A stretch of DNA of 36,733 nucleotides from Candidatus Undinarchaeota archaeon (GTDB lineage: Archaea; SpSt-1190; JASMDC01). Below, in pieces: positions 2,514 through 36,733 of the stretch (the first letter of the stretch is position 1; every line of letters begins with the position of its first letter). Below the pieces are notes generated by a model. It did not search any database and had not been told where the DNA came from. It saw only the letters and a list, made by a program, of their open reading frames with translations. The stretch is from assembly GCA_964519305.1 (NCBI GenBank), contig CAZFHY010000020.1:21833-58565 (forward strand), written 5' to 3'. Both the position numbers and the translations under genes were made by a program.

Positions 2514-2544
2514 ACCCCTCTCAAGACATCCATCCATATGAACC

Positions 2545-2620
2545 CAATTATGGCTCTTTCCAATAATTAGTCCTGTTATCCTTTAATGCTTTGTACATAG
2601 GTTGTATATACAATAATTAC
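2545..2620. promoter_or_regulatory. AT-rich promoter region with a 12-bp palindrome and a direct repeat
   Basis: TTGTATATACAA is a perfect palindrome at 2602-2613. CAATAATTA occurs at 2561 and 2611. The spacer lies upstream of the 2513 start. Confidence 0.5.
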
Positions 2621-2706
2621 ATCTATACGAGAGTGATAGTATTTACTGTTCTGAAGGACCACTGAAGAACCCGAGGACACCCTATTCAGGAGAATGCTAT
2701 CCCTTG

Positions 2707-5700: not shown

Positions 5701-8061
5701 CGGCATCTCGGGCAGCTGGTACGATATCGTGTTGGACTGGCCGTCCGCTACCAGTTCGAGAGGATCGGTCCAGAACTCGTACCCGTTATCCCGTATCTTG
5801 ACCTTGACTCCCTGGTCCACGAAGCCCGAGAAGGTGCGGTCGCCGTCACCCCCGGTCCGCCCTGTCTGGTCCATGTACTCCCCGTCCTCGGTGTATGCCC
5901 AGACACGGTCGTTCACCGGCAGACCGTTCGAGTCACGGACGGACACGGTGAACGTCGTCCCCTGCAACTGTGGCAGGTCGACGGTGATGACGTTGAGCGA
6001 AGGGTCAGAGCGGACAGTGGCCACGTCGCTCCAGAAGTACATACCGTAGTACCTCACGCGCACCTTGATCGCGAGATCGACCCAGGAGAAGAAGGTGGTG
6101 TTCCCATCGGCGCCGGTCCACGAGCTCATGTCCAGATAGGTCCCGTCCTCGGTGTACAACCACACGGGGAGGTCCATTGGGATTCCGTTGTGGTCGAGAA
6201 CGGTCACCGTGACCGCAACCTCGGTGATCCCTGGTAGTGTGTACTCGAGGACGTTCCCCGAGGGATCGGAAGTTAGGTTGACGGTGTCGGTCCAGTACTC
6301 GTAACCCCCGGCGCGTACCATGGCCTTCACTTCGTCACCGACGTTCCCGATGAAGGCGAACTGGCCGTCGCTGCCCGTCCACGCGGACTGTTCGAGGTAC
6401 TCCCCCGTCCCGGAATACATCCACACGCGGACGTTGGCGGGATCGCCGCTGCCATCGCGCACGGTGAGGGTCGCCATGGTGACGTTTTCCATGGTGTAGG
6501 AGATGAGGTTCTGGGACGTGTCCGCGTCGAGGGTGATGATCGGTGTCCAGTAGTACTTGCCGAAGAGGACGAGCCGCACCTTGACATCCTGGCCGACCGC
6601 CCCCTGGAAGGTGGCGTTCCCGTCGAATCCTGTATACGCGGACTGCCCCATGTACACGGGAGTACCGTACTCATCGACAGTGTAGGCCCAAGCCTCCACG
6701 TCCAGCGGATCGCCGGTCGAGCCAGCGATGGACACTGAGAAGTCGACAACTGTGCTGTTGGGGAGGGTGTACGTGACGACGTTCTGGGACGCGTTGGCGG
6801 AAATGGTGAGCGGATCGGTCCACAGGTATTCACCGAGGTAGCGGACCTTGACCTTCACCTCCTGACCGACCATTGCTTGGAGGCTCAGGTTACCGTCGCT
6901 CCCCGTGGAGCCGGACTGATCTAGGTAGACCGTGCCGTTGTCGGTGCTGTAGGCCCAGACGGGTACATCGGTGGGATCACCGTCGGCGTCGACGACCGAG
7001 ACGGTGAACGACGTCACGTTCATCGTGTTGAGGGGCACGATGGCAATGATAACGTTGAGGGCGAGGTCTACCGTGACATCCACCTGGTCCGTGTAGAAGT
7101 ACTGCCCGTAGACACGGTACTTGGCCAGCGCGAGGTGACCCAGGTCGGTGTAGAACGTGATGTTCCCATCGGCACCGGTCCAGCCCGACTGCCCTAGGTA
7201 GATGAGCGATCCGATCCGGTAGCCCCAGACCGGGAGATTGAGAGGCGTGCCCGTGTCGTCCATGATGTGGACCGTGAAGGCGCCCCGGTCGATATAGACG
7301 ACCAGAGAGTCCTCGTCGCAAGCACCGTTGGGATCGCACACGGTGAGCGTCGCGTGATAGTTACCTGAGACCGTGTAAGCATGGGTCGGTGTGGCCCCAG
7401 TGCCGCTGCTACCGTCACCGAAGTTCCATGAATAGGTCAGTACGCCACCCTCGGGATCGTAGGAGCCCGATGCGTCGAACTGGACGCTCTCGAAGCGTCG
7501 TGCGAATAGGTCTGGCCCGGCATCGGCCACAGGGAGGTTGTCCAGGTCAGCAAAGCGCCCTGTGCACACCATGACCTCGCTATGGTCTGCTACACCATGA
7601 ATATGGTCGTAGTTGATACGCACACGGGCCGAATATGGCCGGCCTACTCGGAGGAGGTTGCCATAGTCACCGACCATGCTGACGATGCCCCGCTTCGCCT
7701 CGGCGATCTGGAAGTAGTCATCGCCCAGGCGCCAGCTGTCCTGCTCGGGCCACGAAACGTCGATACTGGTCACGTTGATGGGACGTCCGGCCCCGTTGAA
7801 GAGATGGAGCTGGAACCGTCCGTTGTCGCCGAACACGTGGTCCCGGTAATGGATCTGTTGACCACCGGTGCACGATCCCTTCTGGTAGTTACCCCAGTCG
7901 AAGAAGCCGAACGAGTGTAGGGCTGCCCCGGCGATGACGATCACCAAGAGCATGAGCCCGTAGGTGAACAGGAACTCCATAGCGTCCTGAGCGCGTTCGC
8001 TCCGGACCAGCCTGTGGCCACGTCCATGACCAAGCCTGCGGACTCTATAGCTCAGGCTCAC
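2707..8061 (-). CDS. Giant class III signal peptide surface protein/adhesin (1784 aa): pilin-like N-domain, PKD domain, 13 beta-sandwich repeats, PT/PE linker, FG-GAP propeller
   Basis: RA|QDAMEFLFTYGLMLLVIVIAGAAL signal. PKD motif PVADAGPD..FDASGSYDPEG..YSWNFGDG..HAY. 13 repeats follow, then PTPTPEPTP, then DxxGDGDxD repeats. The exact start is uncertain (GTG 8061). Confidence 0.92.
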   Translation of the reverse strand: MSLSYRVRRLGHGRGHRLVRSERAQDAMEFLFTYGLMLLVIVIAGAALHSFGFFDWGNYQKGSCTGGQQIHYRDHVFGDNGRFQLHLFNGAGRPINVTSIDVSWPEQDSWRLGDDYFQIAEAKRGIVSMVGDYGNLLRVGRPYSARVRINYDHIHGVADHSEVMVCTGRFADLDNLPVADAGPDLFARRFESVQFDASGSYDPEGGVLTYSWNFGDGSSGTGATPTHAYTVSGNYHATLTVCDPNGACDEDSLVVYIDRGAFTVHIMDDTGTPLNLPVWGYRIGSLIYLGQSGWTGADGNITFYTDLGHLALAKYRVYGQYFYTDQVDVTVDLALNVIIAIVPLNTMNVTSFTVSVVDADGDPTDVPVWAYSTDNGTVYLDQSGSTGSDGNLSLQAMVGQEVKVKVRYLGEYLWTDPLTISANASQNVVTYTLPNSTVVDFSVSIAGSTGDPLDVEAWAYTVDEYGTPVYMGQSAYTGFDGNATFQGAVGQDVKVRLVLFGKYYWTPIITLDADTSQNLISYTMENVTMATLTVRDGSGDPANVRVWMYSGTGEYLEQSAWTGSDGQFAFIGNVGDEVKAMVRAGGYEYWTDTVNLTSDPSGNVLEYTLPGITEVAVTVTVLDHNGIPMDLPVWLYTEDGTYLDMSSWTGADGNTTFFSWVDLAIKVRVRYYGMYFWSDVATVRSDPSLNVITVDLPQLQGTTFTVSVRDSNGLPVNDRVWAYTEDGEYMDQTGRTGGDGDRTFSGFVDQGVKVKIRDNGYEFWTDPLELVADGQSNTISYQLPEMPEVEWTVSVHDIYGDPVDVPAWAYNEARGYLDQSGDTGADGNITFTAPIGGLVCGRILYDGEYLWTPCINLTATPAQNTVSYQLPVLDLVAFTITVYSFEGRKVNVPVWGYKESERPEGYEGEWEYNGLDQSGRTGSDGAVTFESTVGSRVKAKLRYHGDYYWTDWINLTDTPNDNQIVFYAPEIIPTQFTVSITDANSNPTNIQVWAYSSDGVYLDQSGWTGADGNITFDGSSSSTVKARVQYQGATYWSSVITLGTDPSQNVLTYTLPDITEAQFTVQLTDENGDPVEYQVWAYSEDDVYLEQTGWTDVTGEVSFSAEVGAVVKARIGVYGQYQWTDLLTVTANASANVITDTVDTVTTSQLTAVFSDHNADPVNVPVWAYLEDGTYLGFAGWTGADGNVTYEASIGTSVMARARYYGVYYFTDALILGTDPSQNVLTLNLPDPTEVGWNVTVTDANGDPVNVLTWAYTEEGTTMDQEEWTYADGEVTFIGPVNTSVGAKVRYYGTEYWSDYVTLSSDPSQNSVSIVLPAVSTVTLTVTVLDEAGDPMNAYVELYTEAQVEMDQGDWCGTDGEISFVGIVGQAVMARVRVGAVHYWSDYIVLTSTPAQNTITYQYVPSPTPTPTPEPTPEPTVEPTPEPTPTPSPEPTATPAPPQEGALGIVSGDEAGKVMVHRNANDDGTVWEATEVQNTGNGVKIVTTGDINGDGNIDIAAAADQKRFHHYTDTSGGEGSSWSIISWSPRPSDVQAVAIADMDGDGDKDIVTVDYGGEVYLYSNQGGDSGDWPRDTLWETSRRFYSVAVGDLNGDGDLDIAVGDNTEEVFVLHNPGTSGVWARTELTLGSGTENVYGLDMADMDGDGDVDVIAGLDNQVHLFTNNDGQGTGWGGSVERTLTGLVRALQAVDMDGDTDMDIVSGDEGNKVTLHTAGGGGWSSSIIYTAGNRVYALDVADVDGDDDLDVVSGGKDKKITLIRNGGGAWSTTNVWTTSRFILTLKVI
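3850..7278 (-). repeat. 13 tandem ~87-aa protein repeats (prealbumin/carboxypeptidase-regulatory-like beta-sandwich)
   Basis: Consensus FTVxVxDxxGxPxNVxVWAY..G.YLDQSGWTGADGNxTF..VG..VKARVRYxG.YYWTD.ITL..DPSQN.ITYxLP was counted 13 times. The fold assignment is inference. Confidence 0.88.
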
Positions 8062-12329: not shown

Positions 12330-12366
12330 GGGTCATTTATATACCTTGAACGTGGGTAGTCACCCA

Positions 12367-13263
12367 GTGAAAAAGATACAGGAGTCCATCGGGAGGGCCG
12401 CGGTGAACGTGGCCAAGGAGGTCTCGGCCGACGCGATCGTGTCCTTAGAGCGTCCCGATGCTCCCGTCCCAACGGACACCTTCGAGGAGTTCAAGAAACG
12501 CCTGATGAGCATCCTTGCCCCACCAAAGACCCCGGTGCGTGTAGTGATGTTCAAGAAGTCCCGGCGTGGGGCGGTCAACTACCGGCGACGTGGTGAGTTC
12601 GTCATCGAGGTGAAGGCCTCGCCCATCGAAGGCGCCATCTTCATCAAGGAAGCTGTGATGGGCATCATCCGCGAGGGCTGGCTCAAGGAGGGTGACCGCA
12701 TCGTGAGCGTGGGCGACAGCTCGCTCGGTGTTGGCTATTCAGGCCTCCTGTTCCTCTTCGATATCGACCGTACCTTCTTCGAGATGTCAGTGCTCGAACT
12801 GGACAAGAACGTGGGTAGCGACGTTCTGGAAACGGTTATCGCGCTGGCCAAGGAGGTCGGGAAGGAGGGCCGCGAGGGTCGCCAGATCGGAACAGCCTTC
12901 ATCGTCGGTGACTCGGACTCCGTCCTCAAGCGCTCCCGACAACTTATCATCAATCCATTCTCCGGGTATGCAGAAGAGCATCGGAACATCACCGACCCGG
13001 AACTTAAAGAGACAATCAAGGAGTTCGCCCAGCTCGACGGCGTCTTCATCATCGGTTCGGACGGGACAATCCACGCCGCCGGTGCTTATTTAAACATTGA
13101 CCCGGAAGGGGTCGGCGTCCCCTCGGGGCTCGGCTCACGCCATCTGGCTTGCGCCGCAATCACCAAGAACACCAAGGCCATCGCCGTAGCGGTGTCCCAG
13201 AGCGGAGGAATAATCAGGGTGTTCAAGCAGGGCGAGATGGTGATGGAAGAGAAGCCCGATTGA
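12367..13263 (+). CDS. dacZ: Archaeal diadenylate cyclase (pyruvate-kinase-C-like N-domain + DAC/DisA_N domain)
   Basis: EGREGRQIGTAFIVGD, INPF, KEFAQLDGVFII (DGA-like motif), GLGSRHLA and VSQSGG. GTG 12367 follows a TTTATATA box. Confidence 0.9.
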   Translation: MKKIQESIGRAAVNVAKEVSADAIVSLERPDAPVPTDTFEEFKKRLMSILAPPKTPVRVVMFKKSRRGAVNYRRRGEFVIEVKASPIEGAIFIKEAVMGIIREGWLKEGDRIVSVGDSSLGVGYSGLLFLFDIDRTFFEMSVLELDKNVGSDVLETVIALAKEVGKEGREGRQIGTAFIVGDSDSVLKRSRQLIINPFSGYAEEHRNITDPELKETIKEFAQLDGVFIIGSDGTIHAAGAYLNIDPEGVGVPSGLGSRHLACAAITKNTKAIAVAVSQSGGIIRVFKQGEMVMEEKPD

Positions 13264-13274
13264 GGGAACAACGT

Positions 13275-13349
13275 GGGCTCGTGGCCTAGTCTGGATAGGG
13301 CGGCGGCCTCCTAAGCCGTAGACCGCGGGTTCAAATCCTGCCGGGCCCA
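13275..13349 (+). tRNA. tRNA-Arg (anticodon CCT), intronless, CCA not encoded
   Basis: Acceptor stem GGGCTCG/CGGGCCC, D arm GCCT..AGGGC, anticodon arm GCGGC-CTCCTAA-GCCGT, T arm GCGGG-TTCAAAT-CCTGC. Confidence 0.96.
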
Positions 13350-13350
13350 T

Positions 13351-26917: not shown

Positions 26918-28096
26918 ATGGCCAAGTTGTGGGACAAGGGCGGAGCGCTGGATGCGCGTGTGGAAGCGTTCACTGTCGGTGACGACCCCCAGCTCGACCA
27001 GCGCCTCGTCCCCCACGACTGTCAGGCCTCCATCGCGCATGTTCGCACACTTGGCAAAGCCGGAGTGCTCAAGGACGATGATGTCGGAAAGCTCACAGCA
27101 GAGCTCGAGCATATCATAGAGCTCCACGCCGCCGGCGACTTCCCCATACCTCCCGAGCTCGAGGACTGCCACACCGCCATCGAGCACCACCTCACCCAGA
27201 CGCTCGGCGACCTGGGGAAGAAGGTGCACACTGGCCGCTCGCGCAACGACCAGGTGCTGGCTGCGCTCCACATCTACTACGACGAAGAGCTCGGTGCGGT
27301 CAACGGACTAATTTGCGAGCTCGTGGCAGCCCTGACCGAATTGGCGGGACAGCACGGCGACGTACCCATCCCGGGCCATACCCACACCCGCAAGGCCATG
27401 CCCTCGTCAGTGGACTACTGGGCCAAGGGGTTCATCGGTGCCCTCGCCGACGATATGACGGTCCTGTGCCCGGTGAGGGCGCTCGCCCAACGTTCCCCGC
27501 TGGGGACCGGCGCCGGTTACGGTGTACCGCTGGAGCTCGACAAGGAGTTCACGGCCAAGGAGATGGGATTCATGCATGTAATGGAGAACGGCGTCCACGC
27601 CCAGCTCTCCCGCGGGAAGCTGGCGGCAGGCATCCTCCACGCCCTATCCCAAGTGACGGCCACGCTCAACGCCATGGCCAGCGACCTCATCCTCTTCAGC
27701 ATGCCGGCGTTCGGGTTCTTCCAACTCCCTGAGGAGATGACCACCGGTAGTTCCATCATGCCCCAGAAGAAGAACCCGGACGTACTGGAGCTGGTACGCG
27801 CCAGCCATCACAAGGTGGTCGCAAGGGAGCACGAGGTCCAGGGTATCTGCTCGAACCTCATCTCCGGCTACCACCGCGACTACCAGCTCACTAAAGGGCC
27901 GGTTCTCACGGGTATCGACACTACAAAGGACTGCCTGGCCATCATGGCCGCGGTCATCCAGGGGCTGGTAGTGGACGAGGAGAACTGTCAGAAGGCCATG
28001 ACCGACGAGCTGTTCGCCACAGAAGAGGTCTACAAGCTCGTCAAGGAAGGTGTCCCGTTCAGGGACGCGTATAAGCAGGTCAGTCGCCGTTATTGA
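26918..28096 (+). CDS. argH: Argininosuccinate lyase (short form)
   Basis: KLW, EDCH, HTGRSRNDQV, PGHTH, TGSSIMPQKKNPDVLEL and GVPFRDAY. Lies directly after argG. Confidence 0.95.
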   Translation: MAKLWDKGGALDARVEAFTVGDDPQLDQRLVPHDCQASIAHVRTLGKAGVLKDDDVGKLTAELEHIIELHAAGDFPIPPELEDCHTAIEHHLTQTLGDLGKKVHTGRSRNDQVLAALHIYYDEELGAVNGLICELVAALTELAGQHGDVPIPGHTHTRKAMPSSVDYWAKGFIGALADDMTVLCPVRALAQRSPLGTGAGYGVPLELDKEFTAKEMGFMHVMENGVHAQLSRGKLAAGILHALSQVTATLNAMASDLILFSMPAFGFFQLPEEMTTGSSIMPQKKNPDVLELVRASHHKVVAREHEVQGICSNLISGYHRDYQLTKGPVLTGIDTTKDCLAIMAAVIQGLVVDEENCQKAMTDELFATEEVYKLVKEGVPFRDAYKQVSRRY

Positions 28097-29078
28097 TGGA
28101 CTCCCGCGCGAGGATGGGATTCTCCTGGGCTTCGGTCTCGGCTCGTCGCTGCTGCATTTCCGTATAGAAGTGCTCGAAATCCCCACGAAGGGAGTTCTTA
28201 CGCTCGATGACCGCGTCGATGAAGTCCTGGGCCTTTACGTAGGTCGAGTCGGTGCTGTTGAACGCATGCAGGCTCTTCTCCCGCTCGATGGCGTATGGGC
28301 GGAGGATCTCCTCTATCTCCCGGTCGGGGATGGCCTCGATGGCATCGATTACCTCCTCGGCAGCATCGAAGTCCACATCGCACTCGCCCTCGAGGTAGGT
28401 GGTCCACATATCGTTGTAGATGGGTGTCCACCCCTTGGGGGTGTCGTACAGGTGAGAGAGCCTGTCTTTGCCGTAGAACCGGAACGCCTGCCCCTTGTCT
28501 ATGGCATGGTATTGACCGTCCCGGCCGACTAGGAAGTTCTTGTGATGTGTGTCGAAGTTGCCGATGAACCAGTCGAACACCTGGTTCTTCACCAGGAAGT
28601 CCGTCTTGTCCTTCCCGAAGTAGCCCTCTTCCGACCACTTGGGGTTGGGGAAGGTGCTATTGTTCTCCACGAACTCCTGGGATGAGCCAGTGGTACAGAA
28701 AGGACCACCCTCACCGTTCAGGATCAGGAAGTTACCGTACTTGGTATGGGGGACAGTGATATCCTCCATACCGGGCCGATGCGCGAGGTCGTACACGGCG
28801 GCCTCCCCCATGGCAAGGAACCGGTCATCATCGCTCAACGCACCCTTGACGACCCACTCGGTATCGTCCTTCAGGTCCCTGGCAAGGTAGAGATCGCAGG
28901 CGCTCTCGCCGACCTTCATGCGCTCCGGCGTCGGGAGGAGCGTATAGCATCCCTGGACACCTCGTCCGGTCCCGGTGAGGTAGTCGCCGATTGTCTGGGA
29001 CAGTGGTTCGGTGTCAATCTCATCGGCATAGGGGCGAAGAAGTTCGTCCACCGGTGCCGGAGCGTAGGCCGAGACCAT
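28080..29078 (-). CDS. HipA/PI3K-PI4K-like atypical kinase
   Basis: WVVK (ATP-binding Lys), GEAAVYDLA (helix C Glu), FDWFIGNFDTHHKNFL (catalytic loop DxHxxN) and AIDKGQAF. Confidence 0.8.
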   Translation of the reverse strand: MVSAYAPAPVDELLRPYADEIDTEPLSQTIGDYLTGTGRGVQGCYTLLPTPERMKVGESACDLYLARDLKDDTEWVVKGALSDDDRFLAMGEAAVYDLAHRPGMEDITVPHTKYGNFLILNGEGGPFCTTGSSQEFVENNSTFPNPKWSEEGYFGKDKTDFLVKNQVFDWFIGNFDTHHKNFLVGRDGQYHAIDKGQAFRFYGKDRLSHLYDTPKGWTPIYNDMWTTYLEGECDVDFDAAEEVIDAIEAIPDREIEEILRPYAIEREKSLHAFNSTDSTYVKAQDFIDAVIERKNSLRGDFEHFYTEMQQRRAETEAQENPILARESINNGD

Positions 29079-30363: not shown

Positions 30364-30454
30364 TATTATACCCTAATCCAAAGGGAGGGTATAAATACGG
30401 ATTGTCTCAGCAGAGTGGTAACAGAATGGGGCCTGTACGCTCTAGGTGATGATC
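30364..30454 (+). promoter_or_regulatory. Promoter and leader of the dikinase operon
   Basis: TTATACCCT-N11-AGGGTATAA is a perfect 9-bp inverted repeat overlapping the TATA box. An imperfect hairpin precedes the AGGTGA SD (30444-30449). Confidence 0.6.
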
Positions 30455-31798
30455 ATGTCATACGTCATCGATCTTGCTGATATCACGGAGAACGACCGTG
30501 AGCTCGTGGGAGGTAAGGCCTACAACCTGGCCAAGCTCATCCATCTGGGTATCAACGTGCCCGAGGGTTTCACTGTCACTACCGAGGCTTACGAGGACAC
30601 GGTAGGACAGAATCCCGCCATCCACGATAGCATCGATAAGCTCCGATCCGACCGATACACCCTCCGTTCTCTCGTCGATTTCTCCGAGAACCTCTATGAA
30701 CAGTTCCAGCAGGCAGACATGCGCTCTGACGTGCGGGACGCGATCACTACTGCCTACAACAACCTCGGCGGCAAGGTCGCCATCCGCTCCTCCGGCTCGG
30801 CCGAGGACCTTGAGAAGTTCGCCTTCGCGGGCCAGCACGATTCCTACCTCAACATCGAAGGGGCGGACGCGGTCATCGCCAAGACCGCGGCCTGTCAGGG
30901 CTCGCTCTACACGCCTCGGGCCATCCGCTACCGCAGCGAGAACGGGTTCGGCCAGCACGTCTCCATGGGGGTAGTTGTCCAGCATCAGATCAACGCGACC
31001 GCTGCCGGCACGCTCTTCACCAAGGACGTGGACAGCGGCGACGACGTCGTCATCATCGATGCGAATTACGGACTCGGCGAGTCGGTCGTTTCCGGCAAGG
31101 TCACACCTGATGAGTTCATAGTCGATCCGATCACCGGTGATATCACCGAACGTTACATCGACGCTAAAGCGAAGATGTGCGTGTTCGCTGACGACGGGAC
31201 CGAGTACGTGCCCGTGCCCGCCGATAAGCAGGACAAGCAGTGTATTACCGATGAACAGGTCAAGGAGCTCACCCGGATCGCCAAGCTCATCAAGGAGGAT
31301 TACGGCCAGGACATGGACATCGAGTGGGCCATCGAGGGCGACACCATCTACATAACACAGGCCCGCGCTCTCACTGTCAAGGACGAGGACCGGGACTTCG
31401 TGGTCCACGAGGTACCAACCGATGCCAACGTGCTCTACGACCTGGACCGCAGTCACCGGGTTTGGGGCGGGCTCGCTCATGGCGAGGTACGCATCGTGGA
31501 GAAACCCTCAGATGTCCCGGACGACCTCGAGAACTACGTCCTCGTGGCCCGGGAGACCACCCCTGACATGACCTCGCTAATCTACAACGAGGACTCCAGC
31601 GGCGAACGTATGCTCCGCGCCGTTGCCATGATCACCGAGGAGGGCGGCAAGACCTGTCACGCCGCCATCACCGCCCGCGAGAACGGTATCCCCACTCTCG
31701 TGGGTGTCAAGGACGTCACCCGTGATCTCAAGGACGGGATGGACGTCTACGTTGACGCCAGTGCAGGTGCGATCTATACTCTGGAGGAGGATGCTTAA
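30455..31798 (+). CDS. PEP synthase-like dikinase: ATP-grasp (PPDK_N) + phospho-His swivel domain, lacking the PEP/pyruvate TIM barrel
   Basis: VGGKA, VPEGF, AIRSS..ED..FAGQ, GLGESVVSG..TPD, DIEWA..QAR and GGKTCHAAITARE. It ends in TAA right after VDASAGAIY. Confidence 0.88.
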   Translation: MSYVIDLADITENDRELVGGKAYNLAKLIHLGINVPEGFTVTTEAYEDTVGQNPAIHDSIDKLRSDRYTLRSLVDFSENLYEQFQQADMRSDVRDAITTAYNNLGGKVAIRSSGSAEDLEKFAFAGQHDSYLNIEGADAVIAKTAACQGSLYTPRAIRYRSENGFGQHVSMGVVVQHQINATAAGTLFTKDVDSGDDVVIIDANYGLGESVVSGKVTPDEFIVDPITGDITERYIDAKAKMCVFADDGTEYVPVPADKQDKQCITDEQVKELTRIAKLIKEDYGQDMDIEWAIEGDTIYITQARALTVKDEDRDFVVHEVPTDANVLYDLDRSHRVWGGLAHGEVRIVEKPSDVPDDLENYVLVARETTPDMTSLIYNEDSSGERMLRAVAMITEEGGKTCHAAITARENGIPTLVGVKDVTRDLKDGMDVYVDASAGAIYTLEEDA

Positions 31799-31799
31799 A

Positions 31800-33431
31800 A
31801 TGGGATGGAGAGGACCGGCGGGGGACTGGGTTCCCGATACGCTCACACCGATCAACGGCGACGAGGCCGCACAGGTCATCATGTCGCTGCACCCTACCAA
31901 GGAGGGCCGGCTGAACGCCCAGAAGGTGGGCGGGCGCCGGGGTCGGCGCGGACAGCACGCTGCTCCCGGGGGCGCCAACGAGGCAGCCACCATGGAGAAG
32001 GTCATGGAGGAGATGACACGGGCCCGTCCTTTGGGCGCTCACGCTTACATCATCCGCACTCTCGGCATCTACCCCATCGATTCTAGTTCAACCAACATCA
32101 GCGTGCGCGACAACGGTTATCTTACTACCTGGTTCAACGACATGCGCAACGCCGACGTGTACGAGCGCGTGGTCGGAAAGGGCTCCGAGTTCATCGATCC
32201 CGAGGGCAAGCTCGCCGAGGAGCTTGACATCCTCCACGACGCCGGCATCGCCAAGAAGGAGGTCCGCTACCGGACCCTGGACAAGTCATACAAGGGCCTG
32301 CTCGGCGATATCAAAGATCAGCAATCCAAGCTCAGCGGCCTTGAGGGCGACAAGGAGGAGATCGAGCAGACCGCCGCGTACCTGGAGGCTCAGCAGGAGT
32401 GGGAGAAGCTCTCAGCCGATCGGAAGGCGAACCAGGAGGAGCTGGACAGCCGCCTGGACAAGATCAATGAGATGCGCACCGAGCTCCAGTCGGTGGTGTA
32501 CGACCGCAACCACGCCGAGAAGGTGCTGGCCGCCCGCGACCAGATGCTCGACGCTGGCGGCTCGGTCTCCCTCCTGGGCCGCGGAAAGGAGTACGTCAAG
32601 ATCCTCGAGACGGAAGGGGTTCTGGAGAATACCTCGTTCGGCGGGCGGAAGCTCGACGAGCAGGGTGTCCACCGGTACCAGCGCATGCTCGACAACGCCA
32701 AGGGACGGCAGGACATGCTCAAGGGCGAGATCTCCAGCAAGGAGGAGAAGGCCCTGCCCTACCAACTTACGATCCGGGACGAGAGCGCCCGGATGGAGGA
32801 GCTGAACCGCACCATCAAGGCATACGAGGAGAAGCTCAAGGGCGTCGAGGGGAAGCTGAGCGACGAGATGCTCCAGCTCCGCGGATTCCAGAACGCTGCG
32901 AGCGTGTACCGCGACATACTCCAGGAGGTCGGCAACGACGGCATCAGCCCGCGGGCCGATGGCTTCAAGGTGCTCGACCAGTACGGGCTCGTGGAGCCCT
33001 CGCGCACCGCGTACAACCTCGATCCCCAGCAGTCGCCGGGTGCCAAGCGCATCGAGGCTCTCAAGCAGATCGAGGCCTGGAACGGCGGCTCCACCGACGG
33101 CCTCTGCCTCATCGGCGAGGAGTATTTCAACCTCAACAAGGGTACCTGGAAGAATCCTGGCGGCATCGAGCACGTCTACGTCTGGGCGCTGTGCAAGGGC
33201 GGTAACTGGTACTATCACGAGACCGATTACGGTCACAATATGTGGAGCAATCCCGGCCAGGTCCTGGCCTATAAGGTGGTGGTGGACGGCAAGGATGTCG
33301 ATCCCGCCGACCTCAACGATATCGCCGAGCAGATCTACGACATCGCTCACCGCATCGGCCGACACGAGAACGATGTGGACCGGTACGCATCCCAGCACTC
33401 GGGACACAGGGGGGACATGAAGTTCCTTTGA
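31800..33431 (+). CDS. Hypothetical long coiled-coil protein (~543 aa)
   Basis: ATG 31800 follows GGAGGAGG, 1 nt after the dikinase stop. The centre is heptad-rich in E/K/L/Q and the C-terminal domain is aromatic-rich. Confidence 0.8.
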   Translation: MGWRGPAGDWVPDTLTPINGDEAAQVIMSLHPTKEGRLNAQKVGGRRGRRGQHAAPGGANEAATMEKVMEEMTRARPLGAHAYIIRTLGIYPIDSSSTNISVRDNGYLTTWFNDMRNADVYERVVGKGSEFIDPEGKLAEELDILHDAGIAKKEVRYRTLDKSYKGLLGDIKDQQSKLSGLEGDKEEIEQTAAYLEAQQEWEKLSADRKANQEELDSRLDKINEMRTELQSVVYDRNHAEKVLAARDQMLDAGGSVSLLGRGKEYVKILETEGVLENTSFGGRKLDEQGVHRYQRMLDNAKGRQDMLKGEISSKEEKALPYQLTIRDESARMEELNRTIKAYEEKLKGVEGKLSDEMLQLRGFQNAASVYRDILQEVGNDGISPRADGFKVLDQYGLVEPSRTAYNLDPQQSPGAKRIEALKQIEAWNGGSTDGLCLIGEEYFNLNKGTWKNPGGIEHVYVWALCKGGNWYYHETDYGHNMWSNPGQVLAYKVVVDGKDVDPADLNDIAEQIYDIAHRIGRHENDVDRYASQHSGHRGDMKFL

Positions 33432-33441
33432 GGTGATCATC

Positions 33442-34023
33442 ATGGACGCAGAATACCTTGACGCATTCCAAACGGTCCTGGAGGCCGACTACTCAGGCCC
33501 CGGTCTGGCCGACTCCTACCGGACCATCGATGAGAAGCTCGACCTCCTTGTGAAGGACGCGCCCAACCGCGCTCTCAAGGACTACTTCACTGAGCTCCAC
33601 TCCGAGGTCGGTGCCTATCACGATGGTTTCCGCGACATCACCCGCAAGTACACGGACCTCCGCGAGGACCTGGACGAGCGGTGCGAGCCCGGGAACGTCC
33701 ACAAGGGCGTGCAGGTGGCCACCCCTCTGGGTATGGCTACCTACGGCTTCATCACTGGTCTGGCAGGCGGCCCTCTCGTCGCCTTCCTGACCGGAGGATT
33801 GGGTCTCGTGGCCGGCTATCTCACGGACATGTACGTGGTGGACGGCGTCGGAAACGTCGCCCTCAATGCCACTGAGAAGGGTAAGCTGAGCTCGCTAGAG
33901 AGCGAGCACCGCCCTGCTATAGATACGAAGCTCGCCGAGGGGCAGCGGCTGTACGAGGCTTTCGAGGAGGCTTACTTCTTCGACAAGATCGAGCCGACAT
34001 CCCTGAGCGAGGACGGTAACTGA
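33442..34023 (+). CDS. Hypothetical helical protein with central glycine-zipper hydrophobic hairpin
   Basis: AGGTGA SD. LGMATYGFITGLAGGPLVAFLTGGLGLVAGYL lies between amphipathic helices. Confidence 0.8.
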   Translation: MDAEYLDAFQTVLEADYSGPGLADSYRTIDEKLDLLVKDAPNRALKDYFTELHSEVGAYHDGFRDITRKYTDLREDLDERCEPGNVHKGVQVATPLGMATYGFITGLAGGPLVAFLTGGLGLVAGYLTDMYVVDGVGNVALNATEKGKLSSLESEHRPAIDTKLAEGQRLYEAFEEAYFFDKIEPTSLSEDGN

Positions 34024-34025
34024 GA

Positions 34026-35582
34026 ATGTACGCCGCCGACCTCGACCTGGCAACGGACGCCTACGGGCACGCCCAGGACGCGGACGGCTACGCTCAGTCC
34101 GAGGACCTATCCGCCAAGAACACCGCCGGTATAGTCCTGGCCGCCGCTGGCTTCGGCCTCATGGGGCTCATCAAGATCGCCCAGCACGGCCACGACATGG
34201 ACGAGCAGGCAGAGCAGGTGGCGACGCGGTACGATTCCGTATCCCCTGACCAGGCCGAGTACGTCATGCGCAAGGTCGCCGGTTCCTTCGCCATCGACAA
34301 CGATCCCGCCGAGCTGGCCCAGCAGACCCACAAGATCATCGGCCAGGCCACTGGCCATGGCTACAGCGGGAACCAGCTCACATTCCTCCTCGACTACTGC
34401 GCCGACAAGGGCATGGAGGTGGACGACGCTATCACCTACATGACCGGTGACCAGGCCACGGACATCCTCCACACGGTCTACACCGAGACGGCCCCCCAGA
34501 CGATCCTCGACGCTGTAAAGAGTGCGTCCAAGGTCGGTTCCGCTGAAGAGGCCCAGGCCTTCGCCGACCAGATGACCGAGAAGCTCATCGCCGACGGATA
34601 CACACGAACGCCCGAGGAGATGGCCCGGTTCATCAAAGGTATCGGTGACGCTGCCGATACCAAAGCGACCGCAACCGAGCTCATCGCGGCCTACAGCACC
34701 CTCTCCGGGGCCGCGGAACAGGCCGATGTCGGGTTCGACGAAGTACTGACGGTCCTGGACCAGATCGACTACAGCGAGGACTGCTCGGGCGACACAGTCC
34801 CCAACCTGGCCGAGGGCACCGCCCGCCTCCTGACCACTGCCAAGCAGTACGGGATCGCAACGGACGACATCACGGCCACCATCAAGAGCCTTGATTACCA
34901 CGCCGACACCAGCGAGACCGCCGAGGAACTGATGAGCGGTACCCAGCGTATCCTGGAGGCCCGCGGGGAGCACGGTGCGTCCCACGACCAGGCCATCACC
35001 TTCGTGAAGAAGCTCGACTATTACGCCGACAAGAGCACCAAGGCCGACGAACTGGGCGAGGGCGCTGCCAAGCTCATCGAGGCATGCGACACGTACGACG
35101 TCACCCACGACCAGGCCATCACTCTCTTCCAGAAGCTCGACTACTACGCCGATAAGAGCACCAGAGCATACGAGCTGGCGGACGGCGCCATCAAGCTCAT
35201 CGAGACCTGTGACAAGTACGACGTGTCCCACGACCAGGCCATCAAGCTCTTCCAGAAGCTCGACTACTGGGCTGACTCCAGCACAAAGGCCCACGAACTG
35301 GCGGACGGTACCGTGAAGGTCATAGAGGCGTGCGACAAGTACGACGTCTCCCAGGACGATGCCCTTACGCTGTTCAAGAAGCTCGATTACTACTCTGATG
35401 ACAGCTCCAAGGCAAGCGAGCTAGGCGAAGGGACCGCACGGCTTATTGCTGGTATGTCCCAGCACAAGACCTCCCTCGACACGGTACTCGGGCTCATCAA
35501 GGACGCCGACAGGGCCGCCAGTGGTCAGGACGCTATAGAGGTCGCTGACGAGACCATCAGACGGATGACGGGGGCGCAGTGA
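34026..35582 (+). CDS. Acidic helical-repeat protein with N-proximal hydrophobic segment (paralog A)
   Basis: 518 aa. AGIVLAAAGFGLMGLI segment and six 41-42-aa repeats. Confidence 0.85.
   Translation: MYAADLDLATDAYGHAQDADGYAQSEDLSAKNTAGIVLAAAGFGLMGLIKIAQHGHDMDEQAEQVATRYDSVSPDQAEYVMRKVAGSFAIDNDPAELAQQTHKIIGQATGHGYSGNQLTFLLDYCADKGMEVDDAITYMTGDQATDILHTVYTETAPQTILDAVKSASKVGSAEEAQAFADQMTEKLIADGYTRTPEEMARFIKGIGDAADTKATATELIAAYSTLSGAAEQADVGFDEVLTVLDQIDYSEDCSGDTVPNLAEGTARLLTTAKQYGIATDDITATIKSLDYHADTSETAEELMSGTQRILEARGEHGASHDQAITFVKKLDYYADKSTKADELGEGAAKLIEACDTYDVTHDQAITLFQKLDYYADKSTRAYELADGAIKLIETCDKYDVSHDQAIKLFQKLDYWADSSTKAHELADGTVKVIEACDKYDVSQDDALTLFKKLDYYSDDSSKASELGEGTARLIAGMSQHKTSLDTVLGLIKDADRAASGQDAIEVADETIRRMTGAQ
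34725..35465 (+). repeat. 123-bp / 41-aa tandem repeats
   Basis: CACGACCAGGCCATCA occurs at 34983, 35106 and 35229. Unit: DVxHDQAIxLFQKLDYYADKSTKAxELADGAxKLIEACDKY. Confidence 0.9.
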
Positions 35583-36733
35583 ACGTGGTGTACGATCTCG
35601 ACCTTGACACGGAGGCCTACGGGCGCGCGGACGCGGCCGACGGTTACTCCCAGGCCGAGGACCTCTCCTCCAAGAACACCGCTGGTGTCGTGCTGACCGC
35701 CGTGGGTTTCGGTCTCTTCGGTCTCATCAGGCTCACCCAGCACAGCAATGAGATGGACACCGAAGCCGAGCAGGTTGCGGCCAAGTACACCAAGGTCTCA
35801 CCGGACCAGGCCGAGTACGTCATGGACCGCATCTCAGGATCGTTCTCCATCGACGATGATCCTGCCGAGCTGGCCCAGCGCACCGATGAGCTCTTCTCGA
35901 CGTTCACCTCGCATGGCTACTCCGGTAACCATGTCACCTTCCTCCTCGACTACTCGATGGACAAGGGCATGTCGGTCGACGAGGCCGTCACCTACATGAC
36001 TGCAAAGGCGCCCACTGAGGTGCTCCATACCGTCTATATGGAGGCCGGTGAGAAGATCATCACCGACGCCATCACCCGCAGCGCATCCAATGTGGACTCG
36101 CTGGAGGACGCCACTGCATTCTCGCACACGCTCATCGACAAGATGGTCCAGCAGGACTACCTCCAGACACCGCAGAACATGGCGAACCTCATCTCCAACG
36201 TTGCCCGGTACGCCGATGTCAAGCCATCCAGCGGCGAGCTCATAGAAGCGGTGACCACCCTGGGCGCTGCCGGTGCACGGGACGGGTTCACCCTCAGTGA
36301 GGCCGTGAACGTGCTCACCACCCTGGACGGTAAGAAGGACACCGGTACCGACGGTGCAGCCTCGCTCGTGGAGAACTCCGTCAAGGTCATGGATGCGGCT
36401 CACGAGAACGGCGTGTCCCCCAACGACGCAGTCGCGCTTATCTACGACGTGGATCGGTTCGAGGACATGGGGAGCGACACGGCCACCCGCCTGGCCGAGA
36501 ACTCCGTCAAGCTCATGGAAGGCATGAAGGAGTACGGCCTCTCCAAGGGCGATGTCACACAGGTGCTGGATGCCGTGAAGTGGGACGACACCAGCTGCTC
36601 GTCCGACGTCACGACCACCGAGGCGCTGCGGATCATGCAGGGCATGAAGGAGTACGGCATCTCCCGCACTGACGCCGTGGAGGTCATCCGTGGTGTGGAC
36701 GGGTTCGAGGACCACGGGAACCAGTCCGCCACC
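35579..36733 (+). CDS. Acidic helical-repeat protein (paralog B), runs off the right edge (>=385 aa)
   Basis: Not in the ORF track. GTGA overlaps the previous stop. MNVVYDLDLDTEAYG..EDLSSKNTAGVVLTAVGFGLFGLI..VSPDQAEYVM..HGYSGN..FLLDY aligns with paralog A. The frame is open to the window end. Confidence 0.88.
   Translation, partial: MNVVYDLDLDTEAYGRADAADGYSQAEDLSSKNTAGVVLTAVGFGLFGLIRLTQHSNEMDTEAEQVAAKYTKVSPDQAEYVMDRISGSFSIDDDPAELAQRTDELFSTFTSHGYSGNHVTFLLDYSMDKGMSVDEAVTYMTAKAPTEVLHTVYMEAGEKIITDAITRSASNVDSLEDATAFSHTLIDKMVQQDYLQTPQNMANLISNVARYADVKPSSGELIEAVTTLGAAGARDGFTLSEAVNVLTTLDGKKDTGTDGAASLVENSVKVMDAAHENGVSPNDAVALIYDVDRFEDMGSDTATRLAENSVKLMEGMKEYGLSKGDVTQVLDAVKWDDTSCSSDVTTTEALRIMQGMKEYGISRTDAVEVIRGVDGFEDHGNQSAT

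What the first reader, a model, noticed from the sequence alone, without database searches (positions are those of the whole stretch)
30455..36733. Candidate new system: acceptor-less dikinase heading an operon of coiled-coil, glycine-zipper and repeat proteins
Seen: at least five tightly packed genes (gaps of 1, 10 and 2 nt and a 4-nt overlap) lie behind one palindromic promoter. Gene 1 has the ATP-grasp domain and intact phospho-His (TCHAAI) of PEP synthase but stops cleanly before the pyruvate-binding barrel. No barrel gene follows within the window. Known: this chemistry is reused with other acceptor domains in rifampin phosphotransferase and glucan-water dikinase. Inference: the phosphoryl acceptor is supplied in trans, perhaps by the co-encoded proteins. 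Their architecture (long coiled coil, membrane hairpin, anchored helical-repeat paralogs) suggests a membrane-associated conflict or host-interaction apparatus.
Basis: partly seen in the sequence, partly recalled or inferred. Interest (0 to 1): 0.75.

Follow-up and report, generated by a model that had tools for sequence, protein, structure and literature searches.

The report
Barrel-less PEP-synthase kinase heading membrane-protein operon
An uncultured marine archaeon keeps a shortened copy of the enzyme PEP synthase that can probably still load phosphate onto its own histidine but has nowhere to put it, and this gene heads an operon of membrane and repeat proteins found only in this genus; what it does there is unknown.

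Summary
Gene 1 (30455-31798) has the ATP-grasp and phospho-histidine (TCHAAI) domains of PEP synthase and stops right after the swivel domain. No barrel coding lies in the operon.

The operon runs beyond the window and has six genes:
- the dikinase;
- a coiled-coil protein;
- a glycine-zipper membrane protein;
- three single-pass membrane proteins with 41-42-residue helical-hairpin repeats (four in a sister species).

All six genes are under purifying selection (dN/dS 0.12-0.29). Outside this genus I found only full-length PEP synthases as relatives of gene 1 and repeat-only matches for the paralogs.

An "acceptor-less dikinase" is no longer unprecedented. Mycobacterial VadK (EMBO Rep 2026) is a barrel-less PPDK that autophosphorylates on histidine and binds partner enzymes. 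Gene 1 is an independent, PEP-synthase-derived archaeal case. An earlier scan note saw a similar module in another genome.

Whether gene 1 acts on the co-encoded proteins is inferred from operon structure only. I found no support for a defence role.

New here: the paralogs start with an acidic leader plus membrane helix. About 30 other proteins of this genus share it, some carrying typically extracellular domains, so the repeat domains are probably displayed outside the cell.

The genome also holds a normal PEP synthase and a histidine-less paralog.

The parts
30366..30394 (.). Perfect 9-nt inverted repeat (TTATACCCT, 11-nt spacer, AGGGTATAA) in the divergent intergenic region between the DRG-type GTPase gene and g1. 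Each arm carries a TATA-like element. Putative bidirectional archaeal promoter.
   Evidence: repeat; TATAAATA at 30390 is the only TATA-like octamer in 9.2 kb; sequence. Promoter function is inferred.
30455..31798 (+). g1: barrel-less PEP-synthase-like dikinase, 447 aa. It has the ATP-grasp domain and the swivel domain with His402 in KTCHAAI, and stops right after the swivel domain.
   Evidence: domains and conserved residues; dN/dS 0.153; closest non-kin relatives are full-length PpsA at no more than 41% identity.
31800..33431 (+). g2: 543-aa soluble protein. It has an Arg-rich N-terminal stretch, long predicted helices (about 182-379) and a C-terminal part predicted as strands at low confidence. 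No family was assigned.
   Evidence: weak SMC-type coiled-coil matches only; AF2 mean pLDDT 42, not usable; 3 homologs, all at least 87% identical; dN/dS 0.141; codons 1-70 differ from the sister species at 16 synonymous and 8 non-synonymous codons.
33442..34023 (+). g3: 193-aa acidic protein with a central Gly-rich hydrophobic segment (glycine-zipper-like, about residues 97-137).
   Evidence: best hydropathy 1.63; no family; 4 homologs, 66-96% identical; dN/dS 0.119.
34026..35582 (+). g4: 518-aa paralog 1. It has an acidic leader (1-33), one membrane helix (about 34-53), a conserved helical N-domain (about 55-250) and 41-residue helix-hairpin repeats.
   Evidence: AF2 pLDDT 81, pTM 0.73, 24 helices; generic alpha solenoid; 123-nt repeats; weak tape-measure likeness; dN/dS 0.178.
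35579..36733 (+). g5: paralog 2, cut by the window end and a 100-N scaffold gap inside its repeats. It continues to L002 8387. A third paralog, g6 (563 aa), follows at L002 8384-10075, outside the window.
   Evidence: (dN/dS 0.289 for g5, 0.190 for g6).

Best explanation
Gene 1 is a PEP-synthase (PpsA) descendant that has lost the pyruvate/PEP barrel. It most likely still binds ATP in its ATP-grasp domain and phosphorylates its own His402. It cannot make PEP.

Like mycobacterial VadK it would then work as a histidine autokinase. Its phospho-state would either be passed on to partner proteins or control their binding, rather than phosphorylating a metabolite.

It is transcribed from one promoter, and translated in a coupled way, with five genus-specific proteins:
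- a soluble coiled-coil protein (g2);
- a small glycine-zipper membrane protein (g3);
- three single-pass membrane proteins (g4-g6). Their alpha-solenoid repeat domains are probably displayed outside the cell, and their conserved acidic N-terminal tails probably stay inside.

I propose that g1 and g2 act at the cytoplasmic face of this membrane assembly, on g2, on g3 or on the acidic tails.

Shown: domain loss, intact catalytic motifs, purifying selection, operon layout, solenoid fold, shared leader, restriction to one genus.
Inferred: autophosphorylation, co-transcription, topology and any link between g1 and its neighbours.
For: Architecture and truncation point.

Catalytic core: 57 of 67 columns invariant in 19 full-length PpsA are kept, including GGK, RSS..ED and TCHAAI. 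The 10 changes cluster in the swivel domain and its approach (residues 333-376) and in the ASF motif. The 85%-identical relative P0009 likewise keeps 57 of the 67.

Selection: dN/dS between two species is 0.153 for g1 and 0.119-0.289 for g2-g6. Five neighbouring genes give 0.044-0.160.

The stop is real. The g1 end, followed by g2 one base later, is the same in the sister genome and in one metagenome contig. P0009 also lacks the barrel. A contig from another study bridges the junction without indels (record 7).

Operon structure: gaps of 1, 10 and 2 nt and two 4-nt overlaps. GGAGG or GGTGA motifs lie before g1-g4. The 9.2-kb span has no T5 run and one TATA-like box.

No barrel on the contig.

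Precedent: barrel-less VadK autophosphorylates on His422 and pulls down two methylcitrate-cycle enzymes. Its authors model phospho-dependent binding (PMC13400623; I read the abstract, found passages and sections 16 and 17).

Surface-display reading: the leader of g4-g6 also heads proteins with TSP3_bac repeats and transglutaminase/BTLCP domains.
Against: No experiment and no RNA data are available.

The link between g1 and g2-g6 is gene order in one genus, which amounts to one lineage.

The genome has other possible receivers: a complete PpsA and a histidine-less PPDK_N protein with a degenerate barrel-like end.

If the solenoid domains are outside the cell, they cannot be substrates of a cytoplasmic kinase. 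That leaves only short tails, g2 or g3.

The topology is uncertain. The leader tail is acidic, which goes against the positive-inside rule for a cytoplasmic tail.

The g2 model is unusable (pLDDT 42).

Ten PpsA-invariant positions are changed, so activity is not certain.
Confidence: 0.42

Rival explanations
1. Gene 1 works with a barrel encoded elsewhere. Its phospho-histidine domain would dock on the histidine-less PpsA-like paralog on contig C11, or on the full-length PpsA, giving a split metabolic dikinase. The operon neighbours would be functionally unrelated.
For: The C11 protein (606 aa) has PPDK_N on residues 18-309 (E 1.3e-35), no swivel domain, and a C-terminal stretch of about 160 residues matching the second half of my barrel HMM (E 1e-5). 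This is a domain loss complementary to that of g1. It is also present in the sister genome. Two-component dikinases exist (HpeHI, PMC12167813; abstract seen).
Against: In the alignment the barrel's catalytic CGQ reads LLWD and GSNDL reads DGESL. ORFs of about 540-775 aa with similar low-identity (23-27%) matches to g1's N-terminal part occur in four other archaea that lack a g1-type gene, so the C11 type does not depend on g1. The two genes lie on different contigs. A complete PpsA already covers PEP synthesis. Known two-component dikinases split between the ATP-grasp and swivel domains, not after the swivel domain.
Confidence: 0.15
2. Gene 1 is a VadK-like regulatory kinase for cytoplasmic enzymes. 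It sits in front of an unrelated surface-protein operon only by chance of insertion.
For: The VadK precedent. The flanking genes are metabolic or housekeeping: argG, argH, Dus, a DRG-type GTPase, pdxS/T and an endonuclease-IV-like gene.
Against: The 1-nt g1-g2 spacing, with a GGAGGAGG motif inside the end of g1, argues for coupled expression. g1, g2 and g3 were all found only in the same genus. The same order is kept in the sister species at about 0.4-0.6 synonymous changes per site.
Confidence: 0.15
3. The cluster is a virus-derived or conflict (defence or attack) module. The paralogs would be domesticated tape-measure-like proteins.
For: PhageMin_Tail scores lie near the cut-off: g4 31.3 and g6 33.7 against 33.2 bits, with no single stretch passing for g6. 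ESM Atlas feature hits point to minor-tail clusters (0.90-0.92, with a low shared-feature count). Thirty of the 50 listed BFVD Foldseek rows are tape-measure or minor-tail proteins, at E 1.2e-3 to 3.2e-2 and TM no higher than 0.29. Paralog number varies: three visible in this genome, four in the sister species.
Against: No capsid, portal, terminase or integrase gene lies nearby, and the flanks are housekeeping genes. GC content matches the contig. PADLOC gave no family for g1 or g3-g6. PHROGs gave only weak unknown-function matches. The likeness is that of any helical-hairpin array.
Confidence: 0.08
4. Gene 1 is a decaying remnant of ppsA with no function.
For: It is truncated. Ten PpsA-invariant positions are changed. 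A full-length PpsA exists elsewhere in the genome.
Against: dN/dS is 0.153 over 340 codons at dS 0.58. The frame is intact and the stop is the same in three independent sequences. The catalytic motifs are kept. No barrel remnant lies downstream.
Confidence: 0.03

Closest known systems
VadK (Rv1127c), the barrel-less pyruvate phosphate dikinase derivative of mycobacteria (PMC13400623)
   Same: It has an ATP-binding domain plus a catalytic-histidine domain and no pyruvate/PEP domain. It is about 450-490 residues long and encoded in an operon with a partner gene. The paper shows ATP- and Mg-dependent autophosphorylation on the histidine and interaction with partner enzymes.
   Different: VadK derives from PPDK, whereas g1 derives from PpsA. 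g1 scores 365 bits on the PEP-synthase model but only 75.7 bits (cut-off 456) on NF004531 (PRK05878), a PPDK-named 534-position model that I take, from recall, to be the VadK type. So this is an independent, convergent loss in an archaeon. The paper states that the VadK host has no barrel gene at all, while this genome keeps a full PpsA. VadK's partners are metabolic enzymes; here the neighbours are membrane and repeat proteins.
PEP synthase (pyruvate, water dikinase; TIGR01418 / NF005057)
   Same: It is the best-matching family over the first two domains (E 6.4e-109 and 3.6e-104). g1 is 33-43% identical to archaeal and bacterial PpsA over residues 2-442 and keeps the TCHAAI histidine.
   Different: The whole C-terminal barrel is missing. 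Model positions beyond about 462 of 798 are unmatched, and scores are below the equivalog cut-offs. There is a 10-residue insertion, and conserved residues are changed in the swivel domain.
Rifampin phosphotransferase and other PRK06241-type enzymes (RPH, PigC, RedH)
   Same: They use the same ATP-grasp and swivel-histidine chemistry aimed at a non-pyruvate acceptor. For RPH I saw only the search listing and the start of the abstract of PMC4844700. NCBIfam matches to these models cover g1's ATP-grasp and swivel parts.
   Different: Those enzymes are about 830-930 residues long (model lengths), with an acceptor-binding domain that lies, as I recall, between the ATP-grasp and swivel domains. g1 has only about 46 residues there.
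Two-component small-molecule dikinases (HpeHI; phenylphosphate synthase is recalled, not read)
   Same: They show that the dikinase cycle can be divided between polypeptides (PMC12167813, abstract).
   Different: In those enzymes the ATP-grasp domain is one protein, and the swivel plus acceptor-binding domains are the other. In g1 the ATP-grasp and swivel domains are fused. No RPH-like acceptor domain was detected in g2, g3, g4 or g6.
Helical-hairpin core of phage tape measure proteins (PF10145 PhageMin_Tail)
   Same: g4-g6 form long arrays of two-helix repeats next to a hydrophobic segment. Sequence, feature and fold matches are all near threshold.
   Different: g4-g6 are three or four separate proteins of about 520-560 aa, each with its own leader and membrane helix. 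They lie in a chromosomal housekeeping context without tail genes.

Membership tests
PEP synthase (PpsA) | N-terminal ATP-grasp nucleotide-binding domain (PPDK_N) | tested here: met
   PF01326 E 8.8e-86, residues 16-313.
PEP synthase (PpsA) | Swivel domain with the catalytic histidine (TCHAAI) | tested here: met
   PF00391 E 1.7e-20, residues 360-438. His402 aligns with the invariant histidine.
PEP synthase (PpsA) | C-terminal PEP/pyruvate-binding TIM barrel (PEP-utilizers_C) | tested here: not met
   No PF02896 in g1. The alignment ends at the swivel domain. No barrel signal on the contig at E <= 10.
PEP synthase (PpsA) | Score above the NCBIfam equivalog cut-off | tested here: not met
   365.2 bits against 598 for NF005057; 349.7 bits against 739.75 for TIGR01418.
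VadK-type barrel-less dikinase | ATP-binding plus histidine domains only, with no pyruvate/PEP domain | tested here: met
   The definition is taken from PMC13400623.
VadK-type barrel-less dikinase | Descent from PPDK, i.e. sequence membership in the PRK05878 / NF004531 group (that this model represents the VadK type is recalled, not tested) | tested here: not met
   75.7 bits against a cut-off of 456, matched on the histidine domain only. PpsA models score far higher.
VadK-type barrel-less dikinase | ATP- and Mg-dependent autophosphorylation on the histidine | not testable with these tools
   Only residue conservation could be checked (57 of 67 invariant columns kept).
Rifampin phosphotransferase / PRK06241-type | Acceptor-binding domain between the ATP-grasp and swivel domains; length about 830-930 aa (the placement of the domain is recalled) | tested here: not met
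   g1 is 447 aa with 46 residues between the two domains. Scores are 130-286 bits against cut-offs of 850-1700.
Two-component dikinase (HpeHI type) | ATP-grasp and swivel domains on separate polypeptides, with the swivel fused to an acceptor-binding domain | tested here: not met
   Both domains lie in one 447-aa protein. No such domain was detected in g2, g3, g4 or g6 by Pfam or NCBIfam.
Phage tape measure protein (PF10145) | Pfam score over the gathering cut-off | tested here: inconclusive
   g4 31.3 and g6 33.7 against 33.2 bits, with no single stretch passing for g6.
Phage tape measure protein (PF10145) | Placement within a tail-gene module | tested here: not met
   The neighbours are argG/argH, Dus, a DRG-type GTPase, an endonuclease-IV-like gene and pdxS/T. 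No virion genes were seen.
Known anti-phage defence systems (PADLOC 2.0) | A match of any operon protein to a defence-system model | tested here: inconclusive
   No family for g1, g3, g4 or g6. g2 gave only weak coiled-coil matches to LmuB and JetC (E 1.7e-4 to 7e-3).

The most novel reading that the evidence does not exclude
g1-g3 would be the cytoplasmic and membrane machinery that recognises the genus-specific acidic N-terminal leader (M-Y-D-x-D-L-E-T-x-G-Y...A-D-G-Y..T-D-D-L followed by a membrane helix). About 30 membrane or surface proteins carry this leader, among them the three paralogs encoded right behind g1-g3. On this reading a barrel-less PEP-synthase histidine autokinase powers or gates a previously unknown route for inserting, sorting or anchoring surface proteins in an archaeon.
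Probability: 0.08. Interest if true: 0.85.

Novelty: new variant of a known kind. Interest (0 to 1): 0.5.

Why it matters
If gene 1 is active, the dikinase scaffold has been turned into a stand-alone histidine autokinase at least twice: from PPDK in actinobacteria (VadK) and from PpsA in an archaeon. That would make barrel loss a recurring route to new phospho-signalling.

Here the truncated enzyme is wired to membrane and probably surface proteins rather than to metabolic enzymes, which would be a new kind of output.

The work also exposed a conserved acidic leader on about 30 proteins of this genus. This points to an undescribed sorting or anchoring signal in a poorly known marine archaeal lineage.

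Against this, everything is confined to one uncultured genus, and no function has been shown.

Tried and rejected
- Complex prediction of g1 with the N-domain of g4 (residues 55-260) gave no answer: score 0.00 in two runs, controls not run. This counts neither for nor against binding.
- RNA evidence: 13 runs were listed and no RNA holder was among them, so co-transcription could not be tested.
- The structure of g2 came out at AF2 mean pLDDT 42 with a 4-row alignment, so I did not use it for fold search.
- ESM Atlas on g2 residues 395-543 gave no usable hit.
- PDB sequence searches found nothing for g2, one chance-level hit for g3 (E 0.29), and for the paralog profile eight weak hits, the best a designed helical-repeat fusion.
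- I asked whether the C-terminal end of g2 is transglutaminase-like, from its Cys...His...Asp spacing. BLASTP against a leader-bearing transglutaminase-like protein gave E 0.054, but the profile-profile comparison gave probability 0.06% and Pfam finds nothing. Rejected.
- WD40 and STAND proteins among the distant hits of the paralog profile are taken as repeat-period artefacts, because the model is all-helical.
- TAL-effector and designed-toroid fold matches have TM 0.14-0.30, and the best VIA-align Z is 10.6. These are generic solenoid matches.
- A tree of the first two dikinase domains (31 rows, quick method) was unresolved. Two rows (L007, L012) were wrong ORFs on very long branches. Nothing can be said about the origin of g1 beyond its not grouping with the genome's own PpsA.
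- The metagenome scan for more distant operons returned only one locus, equal to the sister species' arrangement.
- 'GWRG' at the start of g2 echoes the barrel motif of PpsA, but the barrel HMM finds nothing there. I treat it as coincidence.
- Literature: one full-text search listed six papers, none on an archaeal barrel-less PpsA. This is a narrow search and not proof of absence. I did not open the supplements of the papers I read.

Full report
WHERE THE WINDOW LIES. The window is G000:C20:21833-58565, in a 3.63-Mb archaeal assembly of 42 contigs that is 99.8% complete. Two public homologs of operon proteins carry the source names 'Candidatus Undinarchaeales archaeon' and 'Methanopyri archaeon'. 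The other genomes of the same class held here are 0.6-1.2 Mb. The contig continues 23 kb to the right, and I read it as L002 and L003. The window ends exactly at a 100-N scaffold gap.

THE OBSERVATION.
- Gene 1 (447 aa) has PPDK_N (16-313, E 8.8e-86) and the mobile PEP-utilizers domain (360-438, E 1.7e-20) but no PEP-utilizers_C.
- NCBIfam PEP-synthase equivalogs match it only over model positions 5-462 of 798, and the scores are below cut-off.
- In an alignment with 19 full-length enzymes it ends right after the last strand of the swivel domain. His402 sits in KTCHAAI.
- Beyond the window the operon holds the rest of paralog g5 and a third paralog, g6. A convergent endonuclease-IV-like gene follows.
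- There is no barrel gene. A barrel HMM built from the 19 full-length enzymes, run without filters on all six frames of the genome, hit only the complete PpsA on C5 (E 2.4e-134) and, weakly, a gene on C11 (E 1e-5). It hit nothing on C20 at E <= 10. Pfam PF02896 likewise found one place, C5.
- The 'palindromic promoter' is a perfect 9-nt inverted repeat at 30366-30394. Its right arm overlaps TATAAATA, the only TATA-like octamer in the 9.2 kb scanned. That span also has no run of five or more T on the coding strand.
- GGAGG- or GGTGA-type motifs precede g1-g4.
- Co-transcription is therefore likely, but it is inferred.

IS GENE 1 ALIVE? The same operon, with four paralogs, is in a same-genus genome G001 and on one metagenome contig.
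- Between the two species dN/dS is 0.153 for g1 (340 codons, dS 0.58) and 0.119-0.289 for g2-g6. Five neighbouring genes give 0.044-0.160.
- g1 keeps 57 of the 67 columns invariant among the 19 full-length enzymes in the first two domains, and 79 of 116 columns conserved in at least 17 of 19. The changes cluster at residues 122-123 and 333-376, that is, in the swivel domain and its approach. The 85%-identical relative P0009 also keeps 57 of the 67.
- A contig from a different study bridges the g1/g2 junction without indels at about 89% identity (record 7).
- Gene 1 is therefore a selected, probably active protein and not a relic.

HOW FAR DOES IT REACH?
- Of the 120 best relatives of g1 among 415 hits, 117 carry the barrel. 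The three without it are g1 itself, an 85%-identical 431-aa protein, and one sequence named 'partial'.
- In 41 related genomes the only matches above 43% identity are in G000 and G001; the other top matches lie in ORFs of 759-863 aa.
- g2 has three homologs, all at least 87% identical, and was found in 2 of 17 genomes of the phylum.
- g3 has four homologs, 66-96% identical.
- A profile of seven paralogs searched against 1.84 billion representatives gave 21 hits. Five are strong (E <= 1e-30), and I take them to be the same lineage. The other 16 match only the repeat part; none has its best stretch in the first 160 profile positions. Of those 16, three are WD40 proteins and one a NACHT protein, which I take as repeat-period artefacts.
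- Co-conservation beyond one genus therefore cannot be tested.

WHAT THE PARTNERS LOOK LIKE.
- g4 folds confidently (pLDDT 81, pTM 0.73) into 24 helices: a helical N-domain and 41-residue helix-hairpin repeats. The DNA shows 123-126-nt tandem units.
- Fold searches return designed toroids, TAL effectors and ARM/HEAT proteins at low TM, with best Z 10.6, so this is a generic alpha solenoid.
- Three weak lines point to the helical core of phage tape-measure proteins: Pfam scores near the cut-off, ESM Atlas features, and 30 of the 50 listed BFVD rows. The context has no virion genes.
- g2 is soluble with long helices, and its model is unusable. g3 has a Gly-rich hydrophobic core.
- PADLOC, PHROGs and NCBIfam name none of g2-g6.

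AN UNEXPECTED LEAD.
- The first 55 or so residues of g4-g6 are an acidic tail followed by a Gly/Ala-rich membrane helix. The same segment recurs at the very start of other proteins of this genome. My own HMM finds 25 ORFs at E <= 1e-3.
- A 23-row profile gives 34 matches in G000, 28 in G001 and none in 59 other archaeal genomes, 15 of them from the same class.
- I scanned ten payloads. Four have transglutaminase/BTLCP-like domains (one of them below the cut-off), two have TSP3_bac calcium-binding repeats, one is LOR/scramblase-like, one has only a weak sub-cut-off DUF4347 match, and two have none.
- Such payloads are usually extracellular. I therefore lean, at roughly 55-60%, to the tail being cytoplasmic and the solenoids displayed outside, although an acidic tail goes against the positive-inside rule.
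- This weakens the idea that the solenoid domains are phospho-acceptors. It leaves g2, g3 or the tails as candidates.

COMPARISON WITH WHAT IS KNOWN.
- A full-text search turned up VadK. It is truncated to the ATP-binding and histidine domains. The paper states that its genome has no barrel gene. It autophosphorylates on His422 with ATP and Mg, pulls down two methylcitrate-cycle enzymes, and is modelled as binding them in a phospho-dependent way (PMC13400623: abstract, found passages, sections 16 and 17).
- The 'acceptor-less dikinase' is therefore a known kind since 2025-26. g1 shares the architecture but not the descent: it scores 365 bits on PpsA models and 75.7 on NF004531 (PRK05878), the PPDK-named model that I take, from recall, to be the VadK type.
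- Two-component dikinases (HpeHI; abstract only) split the cycle at a different point. RPH-type enzymes carry an acceptor domain that, as I recall, lies between the ATP-grasp and swivel domains, and g1 lacks it.
I did not check it.

RIVALS.
- The genome's C11 gene has PPDK_N on residues 18-309, no swivel domain and a degenerate barrel-like end. It is the mirror image of g1 and could in principle receive its phosphate.
- Against this, its catalytic motifs are changed. ORFs with similar low-identity matches to g1's N-terminal part occur in archaea without g1. The two genes are unlinked.
- The other rivals are a VadK-like regulator of unrelated enzymes, a virus-derived or conflict module, and a relic. 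They are weighed in their own sections.

VERDICT.
- The defence reading has no support.
- I file the finding as a new, independently evolved variant of the barrel-less dikinase kind, joined to orphan membrane and surface proteins. Interest is moderate.

Noticed in passing
window 34026-34190, 35579-35750; L002 8384-8560; G000 contigs C1, C3, C5, C7-C12, C14, C16, C37 (loci L023-L042, L049-L058): A genus-specific N-terminal leader: an acidic tail (M-Y-D-x-D-L-E-T-x-G-Y...A-D-G-Y..T-D-D-L) followed by a Gly/Ala-rich membrane helix. It starts about 30 proteins with unrelated payloads (transglutaminase/BTLCP-like, TSP3_bac repeats, small two-helix Gly-zipper proteins). A profile gives 34 matches in G000, 28 in G001 and 0 in 59 other archaeal genomes. 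What recognises it is unknown.
   Followed up: partly
G000:C11:48108-49952 (-), = L017:4106-5926 (-): A 606-aa PpsA-like paralog with PPDK_N (18-309), an Ala/Pro-rich middle without a swivel histidine domain, and a C-terminal stretch of about 160 aa weakly matching the second half of the PEP-utilizers_C barrel, with the catalytic motifs changed. Its domain loss is complementary to that of g1. Its neighbours are a UbiA prenyltransferase, iPGM and two kinase-like genes.
   Followed up: partly
whole genome G000 and G001: The two genomes of this genus are 3.6-3.8 Mb, while the 15 other genomes of the same class held here are 0.6-1.2 Mb. Public names for homologs disagree ('Undinarchaeales' against 'Methanopyri'). 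The placement of the lineage may deserve a look.
   Followed up: no
L016 (G001:C29) and L020, compared with window 34026 onward: The sister species has four repeat paralogs. The extra one, 474 aa, lies between g3 and the g4 ortholog and is 48% identical to g4. G000 shows three paralogs plus a scaffold gap, so copy number varies within the genus.
   Followed up: partly
window 36733 / L002 7567-7666: A 100-N scaffold gap lies inside the 126-nt tandem repeats of g5. The frames on its two sides differ, so the true length and repeat number of g5 are unknown.
   Followed up: no
window 28080-29078 (-): A 332-aa protein with only a sub-threshold HipA_C-like match (E 5.9e-4) around a D-x-H-x-x-N-type motif. 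It may be an unassigned kinase-fold protein, and it lies beyond the DRG-type GTPase gene.
   Followed up: no
window 3-8061 (-): Two giant surface-type proteins: one of at least 845 aa running off the window, and one of 1784 aa. They carry FG-GAP, PKD, Big_1 and related repeats.
   Followed up: no
window 12346-13350 (+): A 305-aa protein with a diadenylate-cyclase (DAC) domain (E 1.9e-21), directly followed by tRNA-Arg(CCT) at 13274-13350.
   Followed up: no
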